Shown: positions 5,135 through 18,363 of the stretch, piece by piece | Numbering within the stretch: the first letter of the stretch is position 1 | How the letters are laid out: the number at the start of each line of letters is the position of its first letter | Virus record (IMG/VR): IMGVR_UViG_2740892258_000019 | Source: a virus | Lineage: Duplodnaviria > Heunggongvirae > Uroviricota > Caudoviricetes | DNA: 24,318 nucleotides | Direction: 5' to 3' (one strand) | Program-made: the position numbers and the translations under genes | Notes under the pieces: generated by a model | The model's input: the letters and a program-made list of their open reading frames with translations, nothing else | Databases searched by the model: none | What the model was told of the DNA's origin: nothing

Positions 5135-6250
5135 TTACAGGCAGCGTGCGACAGCAGCCTCATAGCTGATGCCTTCTTTTTTGGACAGGGCCACTGCTTT
5201 CTGATGCAGGGCCAGACGCTCAGGATCGGCTTCCGCAAACTCCGCCACATCCACCTTCACCGTGTCGCCGACACGCTCCTTTGTGGCCTGTTCGGCGAAA
5301 TTCATCACCGGCTCCCCGTCGGAGAGCAATGAACGGAAGGCGGTGGCCAGCGGCGTGCGGCTTTCCCCCTCAGCAAACTCCACCGGCTTGTCGCCACCGG
5401 CGACGGCATCCAGCAGGGCAACCACCACGGAGGAGGCGCGGGGAGCCAGACGCCCCTCTGCGACCAGTTTTTCTGCAAAGGCCACATTGTCCTTATGCAG
5501 TTGCTCCTGTCTGGCCTGTGCATCACGCGCATCGCGATCAGCAGCCTGCTGCTTCAGGCGGCGGTTCTCCTCCTGAAGGGCTTCAATCTCTTCTTTTGTC
5601 ATCGATGATTCCTCGTTACTTGCGGAAGACGGCACCTGGCCTGTCTCACTGAATTGTGCACCTGCTGCATCCTGCGACGGTGCGTCGCGGTACGCCTCTT
5701 CGCGCAGATTGTTGAGCTGCCATTCCGGCAGGACTTTTTCTGCTTCGTCCAGACTGAAGCGGGCGATCAGAAAATCGCGCAGCTTTCCCCACAGGGAGGC
5801 ATTCGTGATGGCCTGCCAGTCGGCGAACTCCACCACACCTTCTTCCTGCTCACTGAAGGACACCTGTTTCAGCCCCTTGACGGAAGGTGGCTGTGCCCCG
5901 AGAAAGCCCACATGGCGCAGGTAGAGCACGCCGGGCTTCGGATTGGACGGTGAATCCGGGAGGTAGAAAGAGGCGGACACTTTTTTGAATCGTCCGTTGG
6001 TGACCATCTCAGCAAACTGCGGGTCCAGCTGGGCAGGCTCTGCCATCAGATCGACGCCGCTGAGCGACAGGGCTTTCACCCAGCCCCACGCCGGGTCTTC
6101 CGTTCTGGGATGACCAATCACGAGTGGTGCTTCATGGACGGACGGGTCATAGGCTTTCACGCAGGCGGCAAGATCGTCTGGCGTGAACGGCAGTTTTTTG
6201 CCGTGCATATCGGTATGAGTACCGGCTTTAAAAATGTGAATGGCTGACAT
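5135..6250 (-). CDS. Mu I-like head maturation protease/scaffold protein
   Basis: 371 aa; N-terminal MSAIHIFKAGTHTDMHGKK...FTPDDL pattern typical of Mu-like prophage I protein; charged coiled-coil scaffold-like C-terminal half. Confidence 0.8.
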   Translation of the reverse strand: MSAIHIFKAGTHTDMHGKKLPFTPDDLAACVKAYDPSVHEAPLVIGHPRTEDPAWGWVKALSLSGVDLMAEPAQLDPQFAEMVTNGRFKKVSASFYLPDSPSNPKPGVLYLRHVGFLGAQPPSVKGLKQVSFSEQEEGVVEFADWQAITNASLWGKLRDFLIARFSLDEAEKVLPEWQLNNLREEAYRDAPSQDAAGAQFSETGQVPSSASNEESSMTKEEIEALQEENRRLKQQAADRDARDAQARQEQLHKDNVAFAEKLVAEGRLAPRASSVVVALLDAVAGGDKPVEFAEGESRTPLATAFRSLLSDGEPVMNFAEQATKERVGDTVKVDVAEFAEADPERLALHQKAVALSKKEGISYEAAVARCL

Positions 6251-12603: not shown

Positions 12604-12708
12604 ATCATCGCGATACTGCAGCGCAACCTGCGGAGGCTGCGCTGCGCATGCCGGATCACATCATCGCGATACTGCAGCGCAACCTGCGGAGGCTGCGCTG
12701 CGCATGCC
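12597..12708. repeat. perfect 56-bp tandem duplication (2 copies) at the junction of two endolysin ORF fragments
   Basis: ggatcacatcatcgcgatactgcagcgcaacctgcggaggctgcgctgcgcatgcc at 12597-12652 repeated exactly at 12653-12708. Confidence 0.9.
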
Positions 12709-12884
12709 TGGCTGAAAAAGCCGCCACACCAGAGCAACATTGCGACAAAGAATACCCATGCCATATGAACCAGAAAGGTCCCGGCGCGGACTGACAGGCG
12801 TTCGGTTCTGATGAAGACCCGAAAGGCTTCGAAAGCCAGTTTCAGGGACATGCATACAATCCAGGTGATCTGCGGCCAGTTCAT
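12600..12884 (-). CDS. endolysin N-terminal signal-anchor fragment (frameshifted by 56-bp duplication)
   Basis: 94-aa ORF with hydrophobic MAWVFFVAMLLWCGGFF segment; its ...QPPQVALQYRDDVIR matches the in-frame upstream extension of the catalytic ORF. Confidence 0.45.
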   Translation of the reverse strand: MNWPQITWIVCMSLKLAFEAFRVFIRTERLSVRAGTFLVHMAWVFFVAMLLWCGGFFSQACAAQPPQVALQYRDDVIRHAQRSLRRLRCSIAMM

Positions 12885-12886
12885 GA

Positions 12887-13237
12887 TTAAAGCCCCATCG
12901 CAACAGCCAGACAGACAGCTGCAACAATCAGTGCACGGCGGATTAACGCAGCAGAAAATACAAGGTGAAGGCCGGTCTGCACAGGGAAACGCCCTTCAGC
13001 CATCAGCCTGTCTTCATGTTTCAGGTACTGACCGGGACGGGCTTTGGGGAAGAGCGAACGGTCAAGCCAGTACCCCAGCACTGCTGCCAGCGTGATGAGT
13101 GCCAGCTTGTAGATCACAACAGGCAACTGCTGTGGCGAGACCAGAGCGATGATGCCCAGCAACAGCACTGAGGTCAGCAGCCAGCCGCTGAGGCGAGGTT
13201 TTTTAACAGGGGGAATGAATTTTTTCAGGTTTTTCAT
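12887..13237 (-). CDS. holin-like membrane protein (first gene of late/lysis operon)
   Basis: Start re-chosen at ATG preceded by GAGGAG; predicted multi-pass membrane protein directly upstream of endolysin. Confidence 0.5.
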   Translation of the reverse strand: MKNLKKFIPPVKKPRLSGWLLTSVLLLGIIALVSPQQLPVVIYKLALITLAAVLGYWLDRSLFPKARPGQYLKHEDRLMAEGRFPVQTGLHLVFSAALIRRALIVAAVCLAVAMGL

Positions 13238-13484
13238 GTGTGTCTCCTCGTTTGGTGGAGACAGCATCACAAATGTGGCGGGATACGGATTTTAAACAGC
13301 GTTAATAGTGAAGATGTAAACGTGCACTGCATGATGGCTTTGAAAGAACGACCAGCCCGGTACCCGAACACCGGGCTGGCCATCGCCCCACAGGAATGCG
13401 CTGTGAGCCGACCAAGGTTCAGTCAGTCTCGCGAGACCAGACTAGCCTGCCATATTTTTTATAATTGTAAAAGGCTTACAGATT
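13238..13484. promoter_or_regulatory. central intergenic region between divergent late operon and dam, containing a 10-bp-stem hairpin (13352-13379)
   Basis: ccagcccggt-acccgaac-accgggctgg read directly; no U-tract; location fits late promoter/leader. Confidence 0.3.
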
Positions 13485-14255
13485 ATGAAAATGCAGACAT
13501 TACCCATCGTTCCATGGATTGGTGGCAAACGCCGCCTTGCAAAACACATCCTGCCGCTGTTTCCGGCGCATGAATGTTATGTGGAGCCGTTTTGTGGGGC
13601 AGCAGCGCTCTATTTTCTTAAGGTACCCGGCAAGATCGAAGTCATTAATGATATCAACGGTGAGCTGGTGAACCTGTATCGGGTGGTAAAACATCATCTG
13701 GAAGAATTTGTACGCCAGTTCAAATGGGCGCTGGTCAGCCGGCAGATCTACAAATGGCTGCAGATCACCCCGGAAGAAACACTGACGGATATCCAGCGTG
13801 CAGCACGGTTCTACTACCTTCAGAAGCAGGCGTTTGGGGGCAAGGTGGCGGAGCACAGCTTTGGTACCTCCACCATATCCCCGCCACGCTTCAACCTGCT
13901 GCGTATTGAAGAAGAACTGTCAGCGGCACACCTGCGGCTTTCCAGAACGGTCATAGAACACATGGACTGGCAACAGTGCATAGAACGATATGATCGCCCG
14001 CATACGTTGTTCTACTGTGACCCTCCATACTGGGGAACGGAAGGTTATGGTGTGGAGTTCGGACTAGAAAATTATGATCATATGGCAGATTTAGCACGCA
14101 GGATCAAAGGGAAGATGATTATATCGGTGAACGATATCCCGGAAATGCGGCAGGCATTCAACGGTCTAAATATTCAGTCGGTTGATATCAGCTACAACCT
14201 CAAGATCACTGGCAAATCCAGTCGCAAGAAGGAACTCATTATCCTCAACTTTTGA
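13485..14255 (+). CDS. Dam-family N6-adenine DNA methyltransferase (orphan)
   Basis: 256 aa with N-terminal PWIGGKRRL (AdoMet motif) and catalytic DPPY motif (FYCDPPYWG); no adjacent nuclease-like gene recognised. Confidence 0.85.
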   Translation: MKMQTLPIVPWIGGKRRLAKHILPLFPAHECYVEPFCGAAALYFLKVPGKIEVINDINGELVNLYRVVKHHLEEFVRQFKWALVSRQIYKWLQITPEETLTDIQRAARFYYLQKQAFGGKVAEHSFGTSTISPPRFNLLRIEEELSAAHLRLSRTVIEHMDWQQCIERYDRPHTLFYCDPPYWGTEGYGVEFGLENYDHMADLARRIKGKMIISVNDIPEMRQAFNGLNIQSVDISYNLKITGKSSRKKELIILNF

Positions 14256-15450
14256 CCGAATAGTAAGACTTCATGCAGTGAATCAAGTACTGCATGAAGT
14301 CAAGGGCTGGTTTTGTGTACCAAAAATAAACAGTGATAGCGGTAATAATTCCCATAACTAGAACACCACGTATAATCCAGAACGTACGTTTCTGCGTGTC
14401 TAGTCGCGCAGAAATACTGCTAAATACACCAGCCACGTCATCTTTAATGAAGGAATATTCCTTATTAATCTGTTTTTCTTTGTATTCAATTTCTTCGCCT
14501 AAGGCCTTTATAGATTGCATCTGGTTCGAAAGTGCCAGCCAGATTAACGTTGCAGCAAAAATGCATCCCAGAAGAATTATTGTGTTTGTTATCCCTTGGC
14601 CTGACCATTTCGTAGCCACTTTGAATTGGGTAGCTACGATAACAGAGGCAACAGGAATGCCAAGTATATGGTTCTGGATATCTGAAAACGCTTTGTGGAT
14701 TTTACCCATTTCTTCGACTTTTGCAGCACGCAGTTGATCCATTACTTTGTCATAAGAGAATCCAGAAGAGTAGATACGATACCCTTTCAGAAACTTTTCA
14801 TGCAGACGCTGAATATTGTCCAGTAAATAAGCGAATACTAGAGGTGAATCAATTCCATCACTAACTGCTTGAATACTTTCAATCAGAATATCTAGCTTCT
14901 GATCCTTATGGGTATCATCATTGAAACAAGCTATAAGGTTATCAAGATACTCCCTTTGCAAATTTTGTACATTTTCTGCAGCGAAGTGCGGTAATAGCTT
15001 GATAACTTCTTTTTTCAGAAAAACTAACTGACAAGTTGAGTTATCAAAGTAGGCCGCGGCCTCTTTTAGCAGGTTAACGAACTCGAGAATCTTCCGGTAG
15101 TTGCTGATGAAAACGGGGATATCTTCATCATCATTACGAAATTTTGTTTCTAGGATGAAGTAATTAGCTGGCTCAAGGCACTGATGCTTTGGAGCATTTA
15201 GCAATTTTTCATGGGTGGAAAACACAAGTCCCAGTCCACTCCGTGGTGACGTCACACGTAGGATGATCGTGTTACCTGGAGCGATAGTGCCTGTATCAAT
15301 AGAAAGACCATATTCACGAGGATCATCAAGCAAAGTATCAACCAGATCACAATCGGACTGATCTAAGAGCAACAGCGAACCGACACGAAACCCCTCTTGG
15401 AATTCCATACGACGATACAGAGCTGTCAGCATCTCAAATGAAATCGCCAC
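14245..15450 (-). CDS. 401-aa protein with large cytoplasmic N-domain and two C-terminal transmembrane helices; second gene of repressor-linked cargo pair
   Basis: Low-GC ORF; TM segments ITNTIILLGCIFAATLIWLAL and FWIIRGVLVMGIITAITVYFW; 2-bp gap after upstream gene; no known catalytic motif. Confidence 0.7.
   Translation of the reverse strand: MAISFEMLTALYRRMEFQEGFRVGSLLLLDQSDCDLVDTLLDDPREYGLSIDTGTIAPGNTIILRVTSPRSGLGLVFSTHEKLLNAPKHQCLEPANYFILETKFRNDDEDIPVFISNYRKILEFVNLLKEAAAYFDNSTCQLVFLKKEVIKLLPHFAAENVQNLQREYLDNLIACFNDDTHKDQKLDILIESIQAVSDGIDSPLVFAYLLDNIQRLHEKFLKGYRIYSSGFSYDKVMDQLRAAKVEEMGKIHKAFSDIQNHILGIPVASVIVATQFKVATKWSGQGITNTIILLGCIFAATLIWLALSNQMQSIKALGEEIEYKEKQINKEYSFIKDDVAGVFSSISARLDTQKRTFWIIRGVLVMGIITAITVYFWYTKPALDFMQYLIHCMKSYYSVKS
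14268..14300. terminator. 12-bp perfect inverted repeat hairpin at the convergence of dam and the cargo cassette
   Basis: acttcatgcagt-gaatcaagt-actgcatgaagt; no clear U-tract; lies within the last codons of the minus-strand gene. Confidence 0.35.
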
Positions 15451-15452
15451 GA

Positions 15453-16460
15453 TTAAACCTCAGTCATCCACATTTCCCTAAATTCTTCAGGTACATTACG
15501 TAGGGTGATAATATTTGTTTCCGGATCATAATCAATATAGCCTTCAGTTTTCCCTTCCCGGTCAAACTTAAGTTCCCAATATTTAGACTTGCCTTTAAAA
15601 GATACCAGAGCCCGAATGACTCGACCATCAGGAACGAAGCCATCCGATAACTCCAACTCTTCAGCAGCAAGTTTACCAGATAACTCCTCGGGAGCCTGGG
15701 GCCAAATGGCATTAACAAGGGTTTCAAGACTAAGTGGTTCACCAGCCTTACTTAGTGCATGTAAGTGTTCAAACGCACTCTTAAGAAATGCATCTTTTTC
15801 AGCGCCGTCAAGTCCTTTCTCTGCCGCAAATGCTTTTAAAACGTCACGTAACTTTTCAGACTCTCGTTTGGCGATTAAGACATCATTACAGCCTAGGAAC
15901 TGTTTAAAATAGTTTGAAACATTACCTTGCCCCTTAAGAAAACTGATATAGCGCTCTGCGCCACTTTCCCACGCGGTTAAGTCAATGCGCCCAGCCATAC
16001 GCAGCTTAGCAATATCAAGATAGGTACTATCTTGGATGTTAAAATCATCTGTGACAGTGGACCCAATGGTAGCGCTTACAATAGCTATCAACAGGTGTTC
16101 ATTGTGTCCTATCACGATATTTGCAAAAAGAACATAACCACCAGTAGCCATGTTTTCTCGCTGAGAACGTTCCGTCAGGTGATGCATCATTCGGCAGGAA
16201 CTTTGGTAGAAATCATCAACACCTTCGAGAAAGTCCCCAGCCATTCGTTCCATAGGATAGTTATCCGTATCGCCTTCAAAATAGCCATAACCTTTACCTG
16301 TGCGTCCTGCATATTTTGCACAAATATCGTTTATAAGGCGCTGAGAGGCTTCAGTAACTAGACCTTCTTCAGGACTCAATCTCTCAGAAGCGTCTCCATT
16401 TTGTTGTTTGTCTAAAATGTGAACTACAACGTGTTTAACTTCAATGGTCTGCTCAGACAT
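15453..16460 (-). CDS. NdpA/YejK-like nucleoid-associated protein family (NA37-like) homolog; first gene of cargo pair
   Basis: 335 aa (same length as E. coli YejK); N-terminal KHVVVHIL, GKGYGYF, central GGYVLF, IDLTAWE...YISFLKG and C-terminal YDPETNIITL pattern match my recollection of the NdpA family; SD AAGGTGGA upstream. Confidence 0.6.
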   Translation of the reverse strand: MSEQTIEVKHVVVHILDKQQNGDASERLSPEEGLVTEASQRLINDICAKYAGRTGKGYGYFEGDTDNYPMERMAGDFLEGVDDFYQSSCRMMHHLTERSQRENMATGGYVLFANIVIGHNEHLLIAIVSATIGSTVTDDFNIQDSTYLDIAKLRMAGRIDLTAWESGAERYISFLKGQGNVSNYFKQFLGCNDVLIAKRESEKLRDVLKAFAAEKGLDGAEKDAFLKSAFEHLHALSKAGEPLSLETLVNAIWPQAPEELSGKLAAEELELSDGFVPDGRVIRALVSFKGKSKYWELKFDREGKTEGYIDYDPETNIITLRNVPEEFREMWMTEV

Positions 16461-16530
16461 TGGCTATCCACCTTATTTTTTATTGCTTAATGGCAAATAA
16501 TTTCTGCTATATGTTCTCGTTAGGAACACA

Positions 16531-16938
16531 TTAACCCACATTTTTTAACCGCTCAATCGTTGCGGATAATTCCTTCAGTTGTTTTTCCATCTCAATCACA
16601 CGCTGTTTTTCTTCAGCGCCTCGCATGAGATCTCGCCGAACCTCAGGATCTAACTGGTTTAGAAGTTCAAGCATTTTAAGGTCTGACGGGCTGAATTGAT
16701 GTTGTGTTGGTACAGCAACAATTTCTTTAGATGGAATATGTTCTTTACCGGTAAGTAGCCAATCGATTGATACACCCAAATGGGTACTTAGCGCAACAAG
16801 AGCCTCTGCGTTTGGTTCTCTCTCTCCACGCAAATAGTTTTGAAGTGAGCGATATGGAATTTTTGATAAGTCAGATAATGCCTTTATTGTCATGCCATTA
16901 GCATCCATCACTTCACGCAATCTCTCTTTTGTACTCAT
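16531..16938 (-). CDS. prophage repressor, HTH XRE/Cro-CI family
   Basis: Start re-chosen at internal ATG (MSTKERLREVMDANGMTIKALSDLSKIPYRSLQNYLRGER...); divergent from ner; low GC; hydrophobic N-terminal track extension looks non-coding. Confidence 0.75.
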   Translation of the reverse strand: MSTKERLREVMDANGMTIKALSDLSKIPYRSLQNYLRGEREPNAEALVALSTHLGVSIDWLLTGKEHIPSKEIVAVPTQHQFSPSDLKMLELLNQLDPEVRRDLMRGAEEKQRVIEMEKQLKELSATIERLKNVG

Positions 16939-17026
16939 TTGAACATATCTCAATTTGACACACTCATTTGGGTGTGTACAATAGACCCAATAGAGTACAT
17001 CATAACCTAACAGGAACACGGTGCAT
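16939..17026. promoter_or_regulatory. divergent repressor/ner promoter-operator region with ACACAC-N8-GTGTGT inverted repeat (16958-16977)
   Basis: 88-bp AT-rich gap between divergently transcribed repressor and ner; repeat read directly. Confidence 0.45.
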
Positions 17027-17251
17027 ATGAACAAACAACAAGTTCGGGCACGGCTGGTTGAACGAGGCAGTAGCTTGCGCCAGTTCGCGCTTAACGCGGG
17101 CTATGAACCACGAACAGTCACCCAGGCAGTCAGTCGCTGGGCTGGTAAAAGTGAACTACCTCGCGGTCGTTTGACTTATCGGATTTTGCGAGATCTATCG
17201 GTTGCAATAGGTAAAGAAGTTACCCCCGGTATCCTTAAGGAGGCGTCATGA
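17027..17251 (+). CDS. ner: Ner-like DNA-binding regulator (Ner/Nlp family)
   Basis: 74 aa from ATG with AGGAA SD; pattern RARLVERGSSLRQFALNAGYEPRTVTQAVSRWAGK resembles Mu Ner/Nlp; stop overlaps the A start (ATGA). Confidence 0.65.
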   Translation: MNKQQVRARLVERGSSLRQFALNAGYEPRTVTQAVSRWAGKSELPRGRLTYRILRDLSVAIGKEVTPGILKEAS

Positions 17252-18363
17252 ATAAACCAAATACATCAAGCTCAGGTATCCGTATTTTGCGCGTTCTTAA
17301 GGCCTTACGTGGCCACGCTTTGAACGGTGTTTCTAACGGGGAACTAGCGGTTGCACTGCACGAATCACCGGCAAACATCAACGGCAGATTGATGCCTCGC
17401 TCTGCACGCTTTACTACCTGAGCAATGGACACAAAGGGCTGCAGGTGATGGACAGCGCGAAATTCTACAAGAACAAGCCCGCTAACCTTGCCCGTATCGC
17501 CAGTGACCGCGTGTGGAGTTATGAGATTACCGACCATGCCAGCGGCTGGATTTACGTTGAGTATGTGACGGGTGCGGAATCCGGTGAGAACCTGTGTTCT
17601 GTGCTTATCAACGCCATGCAGGAGCGTGGCGGCGCAGACGTGCTGCACGGCGTGCCAAAAATACTCTATCTCGACCCCGGCTCGGCAAACACCGCGGGTA
17701 TGACGAAAAACATGTGCCGCTCACTGGGCATTGACCTGATAGCGCACAAGCCGCATAACGCCCGCGCCACCGGACAGGTGGAAAAGGCGCGGGACATTAT
17801 CGAACGCAAGCTGGAGCCGGGTCTGAAGTTCCGGCCGGTTCACAGTCTGGAAGAACTCAACGCGCTGGCCGCGAAATGGCGCAGCCACTTTAACGCCACG
17901 GCTGTTCACAGCCGCCACGGTAAAACCCGCACGGATATCTGGCTGAAGATTACTGCTGAGCAGCTGAAAAAAGCGCCTTCCGTTGAGGTATGTGGTTACC
18001 GGTACAGACAACGCCGCAGATGCAGCCGCCGCACGCAAGGCGAAGGCGCTGCCGTTCGGCGGGCGGCTTGACCCGTATAAACATATCGACGACACCACAC
18101 TTCCGGCCTATATGCCGAAGCGTGGTCAGGCCTCTGACGTACGCGGGCCGCGCACTGAACAACGTCCCATGACTCATGTGGAGGCCGCGAAAGCCCTGCG
18201 CGATAAGTTCAGCGCCGACGGCCTTACCTGGACGCCGGAACATTACCGCCAGTTAACGGCACAGTACCCGGACGGCGTACCGGAAGCCGCACTGGATGAA
18301 GTCATGGCCACGCTGACCACACCGGCCAGCAGCAGTGTTATCAGCATTGTTAACGGCAACTGA
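17248..18363 (+). pseudogene. Mu-type DDE transposase A, disrupted: 57-codon N-terminal fragment, DDE-core ORF and C-terminal ORF in three different frames
   Basis: Strong SD AAGGAGG + ATG at 17248 but stop after 57 codons; DDE-core motifs restart at 17445 in another frame; frame changes again near 17985-18000; locus codes at most ~370 aa vs ~660 for MuA. Confidence 0.6.
17445..18071 (+). CDS. DDE transposase catalytic-core fragment (rve-like: ITDHAS ... LYLDPGSANT ... GQVEKARD)
   Basis: 208-aa ORF with D, D, E-containing motifs at the spacing expected of Mu-type transposase cores; ends in Arg-rich out-of-frame tail. Confidence 0.5.
   Translation: MMDSAKFYKNKPANLARIASDRVWSYEITDHASGWIYVEYVTGAESGENLCSVLINAMQERGGADVLHGVPKILYLDPGSANTAGMTKNMCRSLGIDLIAHKPHNARATGQVEKARDIIERKLEPGLKFRPVHSLEELNALAAKWRSHFNATAVHSRHGKTRTDIWLKITAEQLKKAPSVEVCGYRYRQRRRCSRRTQGEGAAVRRAA

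What the first reader, a model, noticed from the sequence alone, without database searches (positions are those of the whole stretch)
13485..14300. Orphan Dam-type methyltransferase convergent with the cargo cassette, with 3-prime ends overlapping and a shared 12-bp-stem hairpin
The Dam-family gene (DPPY motif) has no recognisable restriction partner and sits in the central module. Its stop overlaps the last codons of the convergent 401-aa gene by 11 bp, and a perfect 12-bp inverted repeat (14268-14300) lies inside that gene's C-terminal coding sequence. The hairpin may act as a bidirectional terminator or RNA-stability element. The methylase may provide anti-restriction protection or regulate late promoters, as Dam methylation does for Mu mom.
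Basis: partly seen in the sequence, partly recalled or inferred. Interest (0 to 1): 0.45.

Follow-up and report, generated by a model that had tools for sequence, protein, structure and literature searches.

The report
Prophage orphan methylase with junction hairpin
This is an ordinary stand-alone DNA adenine methylase gene of a Mu-like E. coli prophage, and the hairpin at its end sits where relatives carry a terminator between converging genes; the real surprise is a conserved folded RNA just upstream of the gene that matches no catalogued RNA family.

Summary
A 256-aa Dam-family (D12) methylase with DPPY lies at 13485-14255 (+). It overlaps the convergent 401-aa gene by 11 bp. A perfect inverted repeat lies in that gene's last codons; it is 13 bp (14267-14279/14289-14301), not 12.

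The window is a BcepMu-like transposable prophage of E. coli. The methylase is an orphan. It keeps its place while neighbouring genes change, and close homologues occur in unrelated temperate phages such as VP882 and phiHAP-1.

The "cargo" is a two-gene module (YejK-like protein plus membrane protein) distantly related to the DS-1 anti-phage system. It lies downstream of the repressor, as rexAB does in lambda.

The hairpin fills a slot that in relatives holds terminator-type stem-loops. It is present only when the cassette abuts the methylase 3' end. The overlap traces to a stop-codon difference (TAG in relatives, AAG here) paired with a compensating change in the other arm. Neither strand has a canonical U-tract, so function is inferred.

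Methylase specificity is unknown; the Dam GATC-contact residues are not conserved.

New: a ~150-nt structured RNA element (13340-13490) accompanies this methylase in at least 130 loci, shows strong covariation and has no Rfam match.

The parts
13485..14255 (+). Orphan Dam-family (D12 class, alpha-type) N6-adenine DNA methyltransferase, 256 aa. The SAM-binding motif I (EPFCGAAA) is at about 13584-13607.
   Evidence: It matches Pfam PF02086 at 7e-28 over the whole domain, TIGR00571 at 116.9 bits against a cut-off of 114.85, PADLOC MTase_II at 4e-115, and DpnM and EcoDam in the PDB at 5e-17 and 1e-14. The exact protein is on at least 1000 public contigs.
14019..14030 (+). Catalytic motif IV, DPPY.
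   Evidence: Read directly from the sequence. It is invariant in relatives.
14245..14255 (.). 11-bp overlap of the 3' ends of the two convergent genes.
   Evidence: Seen directly. It is absent from the Brenneria relative L022, where the cargo gene stops at a TAG inside the hairpin arm.
14267..14301 (.). Junction hairpin with a 13-bp perfect stem (6 G-C pairs) and a 9-nt loop, lying inside the last codons of the 401-aa gene and 11 nt past the methylase stop.
   Evidence: Located. A stem this long arose in 1 of 200 shuffles. It is perfect in 3 sublineages, carries one wobble in 2 others, is degraded where the methylase is deleted, and is absent where the cassette sits in the other slot.
14245..15450 (-). 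Cargo gene 2: a 401-aa membrane protein. Its C-terminal transmembrane region is weakly KwaA-like, and the protein is distantly related to DS1_2.
   Evidence: It matches NCBIfam NF053869 at 3e-21 (75.9 bits, cut-off 315), PADLOC KwaA at 8e-5 over residues 262-394 and PHROG 5023 at 2e-142. It has no Pfam hit.
15453..16460 (-). Cargo gene 1: a 335-aa YejK/NA37-type nucleoid-associated protein, distantly related to DS1_1.
   Evidence: It matches Pfam PF04245 at 1e-80 and NCBIfam NF053868 at 1.4e-17 (63.7 bits, cut-off 330). In 31 of the 33 viral loci it lies directly upstream of the 401-aa homologue; the other two are partial loci that lack the upstream region.
14237..16510 (.). Exchangeable cargo cassette between the methylase and the repressor. 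It also supplies the last 6 codons of the methylase.
   Evidence: Homology to relatives with other cargo stops at 14236 and resumes at 16511. G+C drops to 38-46%. Only 19 of the 636 E. coli genomes that match the region carry this cassette.
16531..16938 (-). Prophage repressor (HTH_3 / CI-type), directly upstream of the cargo genes on the same strand.
   Evidence: Supported by Pfam HTH_3 at 6e-12 and Phage_CI_repr at 2.5e-6 and by the M-17 annotation. A divergent early-promoter-like site, TTGACA-16-TACAAT, lies at 16955-16982.
12887..13237 (-). Holin, the first gene of the leftward lysis and late arm, divergent from the methylase.
   Evidence: Supported by Pfam Holin_2-3 at 9e-42 and the M-17 annotation.
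13340..13490 (-). Conserved structured RNA element attached to the methylase 5' end. It has four parts: H1 at 13350-13381 followed by a pyrimidine-rich tail; H2 at 13382-13412; H3 at 13420-13444 with the palindrome GTCTCGCGAGAC; and an AU-rich H4 at 13461-13486 that overlaps the methylase ribosome-binding site and ATG.
   Evidence: Its conservation is shown. The alifold energy is -33.2 kcal/mol on the minus strand against -22.5 on the plus strand. The covariance model R1 hits 74 of 90 methylase loci searched, 57 of 80 viral loci, and VP882, phiHAP-1 and vB_E354. In the alignment 92% of cells are paired against 71% after shuffling, and all 35 pairs show double changes. G-U cells outnumber A-C cells 325 to 79. 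Rfam gives no hit.
13401..13481 (+). Candidate long-range helix in the methylase 5' UTR: CUGUGAGCC (13401-13409, the 3' half of H2) pairs with GGCUUACAG (13473-13481, next to the ribosome-binding site).
   Evidence: Predicted. Over 72 sequences there are 399 Watson-Crick cells, 92 plus-strand wobbles and 34 minus-strand wobbles, with U-A to C-G covariation at one pair.

Best explanation
SHOWN. The gene encodes a genuine Dam-family (D12) N6-adenine DNA methyltransferase with no restriction partner. It is a portable module of temperate phages. Here it lies in the central hinge of a BcepMu-like transposable prophage of E. coli, between the leftward lysis and late arm and the rightward early arm, with an exchangeable cargo slot on each side.

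The slot on its 3' side holds a two-gene module, a YejK-like protein plus a membrane protein, distantly related to the DS-1 anti-phage system. This module lies directly downstream of the repressor gene on the same strand.

The 13-bp hairpin occupies the place where relatives carry terminator-type stem-loops between the methylase and whatever converges on it. Relatives end the cargo gene at a TAG inside the hairpin's 3' arm. This lineage has AAG there, with a compensating T-A versus A-T difference in the 5' arm. The reading frame therefore runs 8 codons further and overlaps the methylase stop by 11 bp.

INFERRED. The cargo genes are probably co-transcribed with the repressor in lysogens, like lambda cI-rexAB. 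The hairpin acts at the RNA level as the end structure of the two converging transcripts. It limits read-through of the repressor-cargo operon towards the antisense methylase and the holin, and it caps the 3' end of the methylase mRNA. The methylase is probably kept silent in the lysogen and made late, to methylate progeny phage DNA against restriction, a Mom-like role. The conserved structured RNA element at its 5' end is the likely control device: an antisense RNA on the minus strand, plus a helix in the mRNA that hides the ribosome-binding site.
For: Identity and orphan status:
- Domain and structure-sequence matches are given.
- The complete prophage annotation shows no nuclease.
- The methylase region is in 636 of 5426 complete E. 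coli genomes, but this cassette is in only 19 of them.
- Homology breaks at 14236 and 16511.
- Homologues of 65-91% identity occur across gamma- and beta-proteobacteria. Homologues of about 64% identity occur in VP882, phiHAP-1 and Burkholderia phages.

Cargo:
- The two genes stay paired in 31 of 33 viral loci; the other two are partial loci.

Hairpin:
- It exceeds chance.
- Three unrelated hairpin sequences lie at the same distance after the methylase stop in E. coli and Klebsiella relatives.
- The one in PhiKM is a canonical minus-strand terminator after the repressor.
- 61% of 80 distinct homologue loci have a compact hairpin of -12 kcal/mol or stronger within 60 nt of the stop, against 17-21% in controls.
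- The stem is 13/13 Watson-Crick in three sublineages. It is 12 plus one G-U in L204, and 11 plus one wobble, with a compensatory pair, in L022.
- It drops to 6-8 Watson-Crick pairs where the methylase has been deleted, and to 1-3 where the cassette sits in the other slot. One of the other-slot genes is 92% identical in its body.

RNA element:
Against: - The hairpin has no U-tract on the plus strand (1 T in 9 nt) and only a weak one on the minus strand (5 T in 8 nt). The terminator scan did not call it.
- On the minus strand, termination 7-9 nt past the stem would give mRNAs without a stop codon.
- Only about five independent lineages inform the link between the hairpin and the gene arrangement. 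The direction of change (decay or build-up) is unknown.
- Both arms are also protein-coding, so part of their conservation may be at the protein level.
- No transcript, methylation or activity data exist for this locus.
- The methylase target is unknown. BcepMu itself has no such methylase, and four relatives have deleted it, so it is dispensable.
- No conserved sigma-70 promoter was found for either strand of the upstream element.
Confidence: 0.6

Rival explanations
1. The hairpin has no function of its own. It is a by-product of the coding sequence, or a relic of an older terminator that the extended reading frame has overprinted.
For: It lies wholly inside an ORF, has no canonical U-tract on either strand, and was not called by the terminator scan. 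Few independent lineages are available. A Salmonella variant carries a 7-aa tandem duplication across the 5' arm and loop, so the region tolerates rearrangement.
Against: A 13-bp perfect stem arose in only 1 of 200 shuffles. There are no changes in the 26 arm positions between sublineages that differ by about 10% in flanking DNA. The changes that do occur are a wobble or compensatory. The hairpin tracks the convergent arrangement rather than the gene-body phylogeny.
Confidence: 0.2
2. The methylase and the cassette form one functional unit, like a restriction-modification or toxin-immunity system. Methylation would protect the host or phage from the cassette's activity.
For: The two are adjacent, their 3' ends overlap by 11 bp, and the cassette supplies the last 6 codons of the methylase.
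Against: The methylase is found next to lipoprotein genes, next to no cargo at all, or co-directional with other genes. The cassette occurs without any nearby homologue of this methylase in 20 or more viral loci, on the methylase's other side in L090, L098 and L192, and beside a deleted methylase in L091-L094. No nuclease domain was detected.
Confidence: 0.05
3. The methylase is mainly an epigenetic regulator of the phage's own lysis-lysogeny or late promoters, not an anti-restriction function.
For: It lies in the regulatory hinge between the repressor and the divergent late operon. It carries an elaborate conserved control region. A regulatory role has been proposed for the related methylase of the Vibrio phage VHML; this is recalled from memory and was not checked here.
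Against: In VP882, phiHAP-1 and Burkholderia phages the same methylase, with the same RNA element, lies at the end of the late or tail operon rather than in a regulatory hinge. In many viral contigs it is the terminal gene. It has been lost without loss of the prophage.
Confidence: 0.15
4. The upstream conserved element is not an RNA but a DNA control region. The H3 palindrome would be a Mor/C-type activator site for a late promoter, and the other repeats would be further protein-binding sites.
For: The H3 palindrome is centred about 40 bp upstream of the transcription start implied by the TATAAT at 13460-13465. That is the geometry of Mor/C-dependent promoters in Mu, according to established knowledge. 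A Mor-family gene is present in the prophage.
Against: All 35 pairs covary. G-U cells outnumber A-C cells four to one in H1-H3, and the opposite bias holds in the plus-strand long-range helix. That is the pattern of RNA pairing, not DNA symmetry. The TATAAT is not conserved in relatives. The element also accompanies the methylase in phages that are not Mu-like.
Confidence: 0.15

Closest known systems
Dam-family (D12 class) adenine methyltransferases: E. coli Dam, T4 Dam, DpnM
   Same: The fold family and motif order match: motif I, then the target-recognition region, then DPPY. The protein passes Pfam PF02086 and TIGR00571 and aligns directly to DpnM and EcoDam. Like Dam, it has no restriction partner.
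   Different: The relationship is remote (E about 1e-14 to 1e-17). The residues that read GATC in EcoDam (L122, R124, N126, known from the published structure) align with other residues here. GATC specificity therefore cannot be assumed. The gene is phage-borne and dispensable.
Mu Mom, and the Hia5 / Hin1523 / Nma1821 non-specific methylases of Mu-like prophages (PMC3299994)
   Same: This is a DNA adenine-modifying function carried by a transposable (Mu-like) prophage. It is Dam-related with DPPY and is probably under tight post-transcriptional control. In many related phages the gene is the terminal one, as mom is in Mu.
   Different: Here it is central, not at the right end. No com-like gene precedes it. 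Sequence membership in the Hia5 subfamily was not tested. Hia5 is much further from Dam than this protein is. Non-specific activity is unknown.
Lambda cI-rexA-rexB immunity operon
   Same: An anti-phage-type cargo lies directly downstream of the repressor gene on the same strand, and a stem-loop closes the unit before the next transcription unit. That rexAB follows cI in lambda, with a terminator closing the operon, is established knowledge and was not checked here.
   Different: Co-transcription is inferred only. The closing hairpin here lies inside the last cargo codons and lacks a clear U-tract.
DS-1 anti-phage system (NCBIfam NF053868 / NF053869; DefensePredictor, PMC13092281)
   Same: The architecture is the same: a YejK-type nucleoid-associated protein followed by a second protein. 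Both models are hit. The paper reports a validated defence system with a YejK domain.
   Different: The scores are far below the equivalog cut-offs (63.7 against 330, and 75.9 against 315). Defence activity is untested. The equation of the paper's system with the name DS-1 rests on NCBIfam naming; it was not found in the paper's main text.
Antisense-RNA and leader-structure control of harmful genes: hok/sok, and Mu com-mom translational control
   Same: A structured RNA is complementary to the leader of a potentially harmful gene. The mRNA also has a long-range helix that can hide the ribosome-binding site.
   Different: No transcript has been shown. No promoter has been identified. There is no Com-like protein. 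The resemblance is in inferred mechanism only.

Membership tests
D12-class / Dam-family N6-adenine DNA methyltransferase | Passes the curated family profiles. | tested here: met
   Pfam PF02086 scores 98.4 bits against a cut-off of 22. TIGR00571 scores 116.9 bits against 114.85.
D12-class / Dam-family N6-adenine DNA methyltransferase | Catalytic DPPY motif and a SAM-binding FxGxG-type motif, in alpha order (motif I before motif IV). | tested here: met
   DPPY is at residues 179-182 and EPFCGAAA at residues 34-41. Both are invariant in relatives.
GATC-specific Dam (EcoDam / T4 Dam / DpnM type) | Conservation of the GATC-contacting residues (EcoDam L122, R124, N126, P134). | tested here: not met
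   In the phmmer alignments to 2g1p and 2dpm, R124 aligns with E or A, L122 with V or K, and N126 with S or H. Only the proline and arginine of the loop are kept. The NF008152 Dam equivalog scores 69 bits against a cut-off of 441.
Orphan (solitary) methyltransferase | No cognate restriction endonuclease in the neighbourhood, and the methylase is conserved independently of its neighbours. | tested here: met
   
Orphan (solitary) methyltransferase | Demonstrated methyltransferase activity and recognition motif. | not testable with these tools
   This needs a SMRT or Nanopore methylome of phage DNA, or of a dam- dcm- host expressing the gene.
Hia5 / Hin1523 non-specific methylases of Mu-like prophages | Gene at the mom position (right end), downstream of a com-like gene. 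| tested here: not met
   The gene is central, between the holin and the repressor. The 214-bp upstream region holds no com-like ORF.
Hia5 / Hin1523 non-specific methylases of Mu-like prophages | Sequence membership in the subfamily and near-non-specific adenine methylation. | not tested
Activity cannot be tested here.
Intrinsic (Rho-independent) terminator | Stable G+C-containing stem-loop. | tested here: met
   The stem is 13 bp with 6 G-C pairs, at about -20 to -22 kcal/mol on either strand.
Intrinsic (Rho-independent) terminator | U-tract immediately 3' of the stem. | tested here: not met
   The plus-strand tail is AAGGGCUGG (1 U). The minus-strand tail is UUACUAUU (5 of 8 U), but it lies inside the ORF and the loop is 9 nt. 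The scan did not call it.
DS-1 anti-phage system (NCBIfam equivalogs) | Both proteins reach the equivalog cut-offs. | tested here: not met
   The scores are 63.7 against 330 and 75.9 against 315. The proteins are related but are not members by the curated thresholds.
Kiwa (KwaA + KwaB) | A KwaA membrane protein together with a KwaB (DUF4868) partner. | tested here: not met
   There is only a weak KwaA hit (8e-5) on the C-terminal third of the 401-aa protein. The partner is NA37, with no PADLOC hit.
Any Rfam 15 RNA family (for the element upstream of the methylase) | A match at the gathering score, or a suggestive sub-threshold match. | tested here: not met
   Nothing reached the gathering score in the window or in 9 related loci. 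Only two noise hits, elsewhere, appeared at E up to 5.

The most novel reading that the evidence does not exclude
The roughly 110-150-nt element at 13340-13490 is a previously uncatalogued structured RNA family. It travels with this orphan-methylase subfamily across unrelated temperate phages (BcepMu-like, VP882/phiHAP-1-like and Burkholderia phages). It works as a sense/antisense switch. A stable minus-strand RNA (H1-H3) is complementary to the methylase leader. In the mRNA, a helix (13401-13409 with 13473-13481) hides the ribosome-binding site. Together they keep a potentially harmful methylase silent in lysogens until lytic growth.
Probability: 0.45. Interest if true: 0.6.

Novelty: new member of a known kind. 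Interest (0 to 1): 0.36.

Why it matters
As submitted, the finding is ordinary. Orphan Dam-family methylases are common prophage genes, and a stem-loop between convergent genes is expected.

Three points are still useful:
- **Cargo slots.** The locus defines two exchangeable slots beside a fixed methylase in a prophage family present in about 12% of complete E. coli genomes. One slot holds a DS-1-like module placed like lambda rexAB.
- **Origin of the overlap.** The junction shows how a stop-codon difference inside a hairpin arm, with a compensating change in the other arm, produces overlapping convergent genes.
- **New RNA element.** The methylase is coupled in at least 130 loci to a strongly covarying structured RNA that is absent from Rfam. 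If this RNA controls methylase expression, it would explain why prophage methylases are silent in lysogen methylomes, and it would offer a compact regulatory part.

Tried and rejected
- **Restriction-modification reading.** Rejected, because the methylase and the cassette occur independently of each other.
- **GATC specificity.** Not supported by the alignment to EcoDam and DpnM. The GATC count in the window is uninformative: 71 observed against 94 expected.
- **Literature on specificity.** The Salmonella methylome note, the M.EcoGIX paper, the VP882, phiE125 and VHML searches, and the Shewanella Mu-like prophage paper gave nothing on this subfamily.
- **M.EcoMIV of strain EC958.** This is a D12-class prophage methylase that was not transcribed in the lysogen and has no assigned motif (PMC4659465). 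It is a lead only. Three blind fetches of EC958 regions found no prophage, so identity with this protein is unverified.
- **Metagenome scan.** The degenerate junction pattern returned mostly chance matches. Only a few new junction sequences were recovered (L195, L204, L209, L143, L192).
- **Viral pattern scan.** It added only one short, non-homologous locus.
- **Promoter search.** No positionally conserved sigma-70 promoter was found for either strand of the upstream element. The apparent peak is the conserved GATAATG at the start codon.
- **Known RNA families.** Rfam and ARAGORN were negative. A recollection of a "D12-methyl" RNA motif upstream of D12 methylase genes could not be confirmed in the paper library.
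- **Kiwa membership of the cassette.** Rejected.
Full report
**Observation**

The plus-strand ORF 13485-14255 (256 aa) and the minus-strand ORF 14245-15450 (401 aa, GTG start) are both present. DPPY is encoded at 14019-14030. The two genes overlap by 11 bp at their 3' ends.

The inverted repeat is one pair longer than reported. It has 13 perfect pairs, 14267-14279 with 14289-14301, and a 9-nt loop. It lies 11 nt past the methylase stop and inside the last codons of the 401-aa gene.

A perfect stem of this length with a short loop arose in only 1 of 200 dinucleotide-preserving shuffles of the window. The local fold is unusually stable on both strands, with z = -4.0 and -2.8.

**What the window is**

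Over 12646-17382 the window is 99.96% identical to a prophage in E. coli M-17. Related phage records are classified in Bcepmuvirus, for example PhiKM. The layout is as follows:

- Lysis, head and tail genes run leftward from the holin at 12887-13237.
- Early genes run rightward from about 17000: a Ner-like gene, a DDE transposase, a MuB-like ATPase, Gam and Mor.
- The hinge between these arms holds the methylase (+), two A+T-rich cargo genes (-) and the repressor (-, 16531-16938).

**The methylase**

It passes Pfam PF02086 and, narrowly, TIGR00571. It aligns directly to DpnM and EcoDam. Motif I precedes DPPY, which is the alpha-type order.

It is an orphan. The whole prophage has no annotated nuclease, and the flanking proteins have no nuclease domain.

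The methylase region occurs in 636 of 5426 complete E. coli genomes, but only 19 of them carry this cassette. Homology to relatives with other cargo stops at 14236 and resumes at 16511. A second insertion point lies between the holin and the methylase, at about 13310-13341.

Homologues of 65-91% identity occur in prophages of many gamma- and beta-proteobacteria. Homologues of about 64% identity occur in phages that are not Mu-like, such as VP882, phiHAP-1 and Burkholderia phages.

The gene is not essential. BcepMu itself lacks it, and four viral contigs carry a clean deletion of about 900 bp.

Its target is unknown. The EcoDam residues that read GATC align with different residues here (the residue roles come from the published EcoDam structure). 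Public names say only "DNA adenine methylase".

**The cargo**

The 335-aa protein is a YejK/NA37 nucleoid-associated protein (1e-80). The 401-aa protein has no Pfam domain and a weakly KwaA-like C-terminal membrane region.

Both hit the NCBIfam models named DS1_1 ("nucleoid-associated anti-phage protein") and DS1_2, but far below the equivalog cut-offs. The DefensePredictor paper reports a validated defence system with a YejK domain (PMC13092281). I could not find the name DS-1 itself in its main text.

The two genes are adjacent in 31 of the 33 viral loci, down to 36% identity; the other two are partial loci that lack the upstream region. Their position directly downstream of the repressor on the same strand recalls lambda cI-rexAB. 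Co-transcription with the repressor is inferred, not shown.

**The hairpin**

Four results place it in context.

First, relatives with other cargo carry unrelated hairpin sequences at the same distance after the methylase stop. In PhiKM, which has no cargo gene, the hairpin is a canonical minus-strand terminator 87 nt after the repressor stop, with a UUUGUUUC tail on that strand only. In Photorhabdus it is a plus-strand terminator. In Xenorhabdus and several beta-proteobacteria it looks bidirectional.

Second, across 80 distinct homologue loci, 61% have a compact hairpin of -12 kcal/mol or stronger within 60 nt of the stop. Shuffled or internal control sequences give 17-21%.

Third, distant homologues of the cassette end with ordinary terminators just after their stop codon. 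The in-frame hairpin occurs only where the cassette abuts the methylase 3' end. The counts of Watson-Crick pairs out of 13 are:

| Lineage | Arrangement | Watson-Crick pairs |
|---|---|---|
| Window, L005, L195 | convergent with intact methylase | 13 |
| L204 | convergent | 12, plus one G-U |
| L022 (Brenneria) | convergent | 11, plus one wobble and one compensatory T-A to A-T pair |
| L091-L094 | methylase deleted | 6-8 |
| L090, L098, L192 | cassette in the holin-side slot | 1-3 |

L090 is 92% identical to the window gene in its body but has a different tail. The tail and hairpin therefore go with the slot, not with the gene's phylogeny.

Fourth, the compensatory pair coincides with the stop codon. 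L022 and L091-L094 read ATG TAG. The window lineage reads ATG AAG and runs on for 8 codons to a TGA that overlaps the methylase. This accounts for the 11-bp overlap.

**Limits of the hairpin evidence**

- Neither strand has a canonical U-tract, and the scan did not call a terminator.
- Minus-strand termination would precede the stop codon.
- Only about five lineages inform the link between hairpin and arrangement, and the direction of change is unknown.
- The arms are also coding sequence.

I therefore rate the RNA-end function (a terminator or 3' stabiliser for the converging transcripts) as likely but unproven.

**A structured RNA next to the methylase**

The 150 nt upstream of the ATG are conserved across genera and show compensatory changes.

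RNAalifold on a plain MAFFT alignment favours the minus strand: -33.2 kcal/mol with 15 compensatory pairs, against -22.5 for the plus strand.

A covariance model built from 17 sequences found the element in many more loci, always at the methylase 5' end:

- 74 of 90 methylase loci searched;
- 57 of 80 viral-contig loci;
- VP882, phiHAP-1 and Burkholderia phage vB_E354.

The element stays with the methylase when the cassette is inserted between it and the holin. The deletion that removes the methylase in L091-L094 also spans its position, and no hit was found in L091 or L093.

On the 73-sequence alignment, 92.3% of cells pair, against 71% in shuffles (0 of 500 reach the observed value) and 31-43% when the partners are slid. 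All 35 pairs show double changes. This alignment was fitted to the model, so it leans towards the structure.

G-U cells outnumber A-C cells 325 to 79. The minus-strand RNA is the more stable one in 66 of 72 sequences. Base composition explains about half of that difference.

A separate long-range helix shows the opposite wobble bias. CUGUGAGCC (13401-13409) pairs with GGCUUACAG (13473-13481), next to the ribosome-binding site. It has 92 plus-strand wobbles against 34 minus-strand wobbles, and one U-A to C-G covarying pair. This fits a helix in the methylase mRNA that hides the ribosome-binding site.

No Rfam 15 family matches. No tRNA or tmRNA is present. No conserved sigma-70 promoter was found.

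My reading is a sense/antisense control module for a potentially harmful methylase. It is comparable in logic to hok/sok or to Mu com-mom control, and it is inferred only.

**Mechanism overall**

Shown:
- the family membership, orphan status, modular position and dispensability of the methylase;
- the boundaries of the cassette;
- the reality of the hairpin and its dependence on the gene arrangement;
- the covariation of the RNA element.

Inferred:
- co-transcription of the cargo with the repressor;
- the hairpin as the end structure of the converging transcripts;
- late, Mom-like anti-restriction use of the methylase;
- RNA-based silencing of the methylase in lysogens.

A statement in PMC4659465 that prophage methylases are often transcriptionally silent fits this picture. 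I could not verify that its M.EcoMIV is this protein.

**Verdict**

The methylase and the hairpin are new members of known kinds. The adjacent RNA element is the part most likely to be new.

Noticed in passing
window 13340-13490 (minus strand); also L250 2853-3009, L251 2853-2999, L253 2851-2972, and 130 or more other loci: A conserved structured RNA element with three covarying hairpins, an AU-rich hairpin and a pyrimidine-rich tail always lies at the 5' end of this methylase subfamily, including in phages that are not Mu-like. It has no Rfam 15 match.
   Followed up: yes
window 10262, 12646-12652, 17382/17383 and 17993, compared with L001: Relative to the otherwise 99-100% identical prophage in E. 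coli M-17, the window lacks four internal segments of about 289 bp, 56-62 bp, 1569 bp and 320 bp. By the M-17 gene map these fall in the large terminase, the SLT endolysin, the HTH/DUF3102/transposase N-terminus and the transposase. This copy therefore looks defective, or the sequence has been spliced.
   Followed up: partly
window 14245-16460: The cargo is a YejK/NA37-like protein plus a membrane protein with a weakly KwaA-like C-terminus. Both hit the NCBIfam DS1_1 and DS1_2 anti-phage models far below cut-off. The pair is conserved down to 36% identity in many phage contexts.
   Followed up: partly
window about 13310-13341; L002 4112-5080; L004 2430-3858; L090, L098, L192: A second cargo insertion point lies between the holin and the methylase-plus-RNA-element block. 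It holds extra genes in KP12 and PhiKM. In Klebsiella-type relatives it holds the same DS-1-like cassette, with a different C-terminal tail.
   Followed up: partly
L091-L094, about 5180-5440: Four viral contigs carry the cassette next to a clean deletion of about 900 bp. The deletion removes the methylase and its upstream RNA element, leaving only the last 25-55 bp of the gene.
   Followed up: yes
protein P0023 (Salmonella, 408 aa): A variant of the 401-aa protein has a 7-residue tandem duplication (…LMQYLIDFMQYLID…). By inference from the protein sequence, the duplication covers the hairpin's 5' arm and loop. This looks like replication slippage at the hairpin.
   Followed up: no
L275, L276, L278, L284, L294-L296, L302, L306, L309, L317, L331, L336; also H30 and H36: In many viral contigs and in two phage records the methylase homologue is the terminal gene, within a few bases of the contig end. 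This resembles the position of mom at the right end of Mu.
   Followed up: no
window 14349-14376 (+) and 16955-16982 (+): There are two strong sigma-70-like sites. TTCCCA-16-TATAAT lies just past the hairpin and points antisense into the cargo gene. TTGACA-16-TACAAT lies upstream of the early genes and is probably the early promoter, divergent from the repressor.
   Followed up: no
L003 4104-4637; L007 6819-7352; L011, L014, L019 and L021 downstream of the methylase: In relatives, the slot between the methylase and the repressor usually holds a lipoprotein gene of 111-312 aa with an LxGC lipobox. This may be a superinfection-exclusion type of cargo gene.
   Followed up: no
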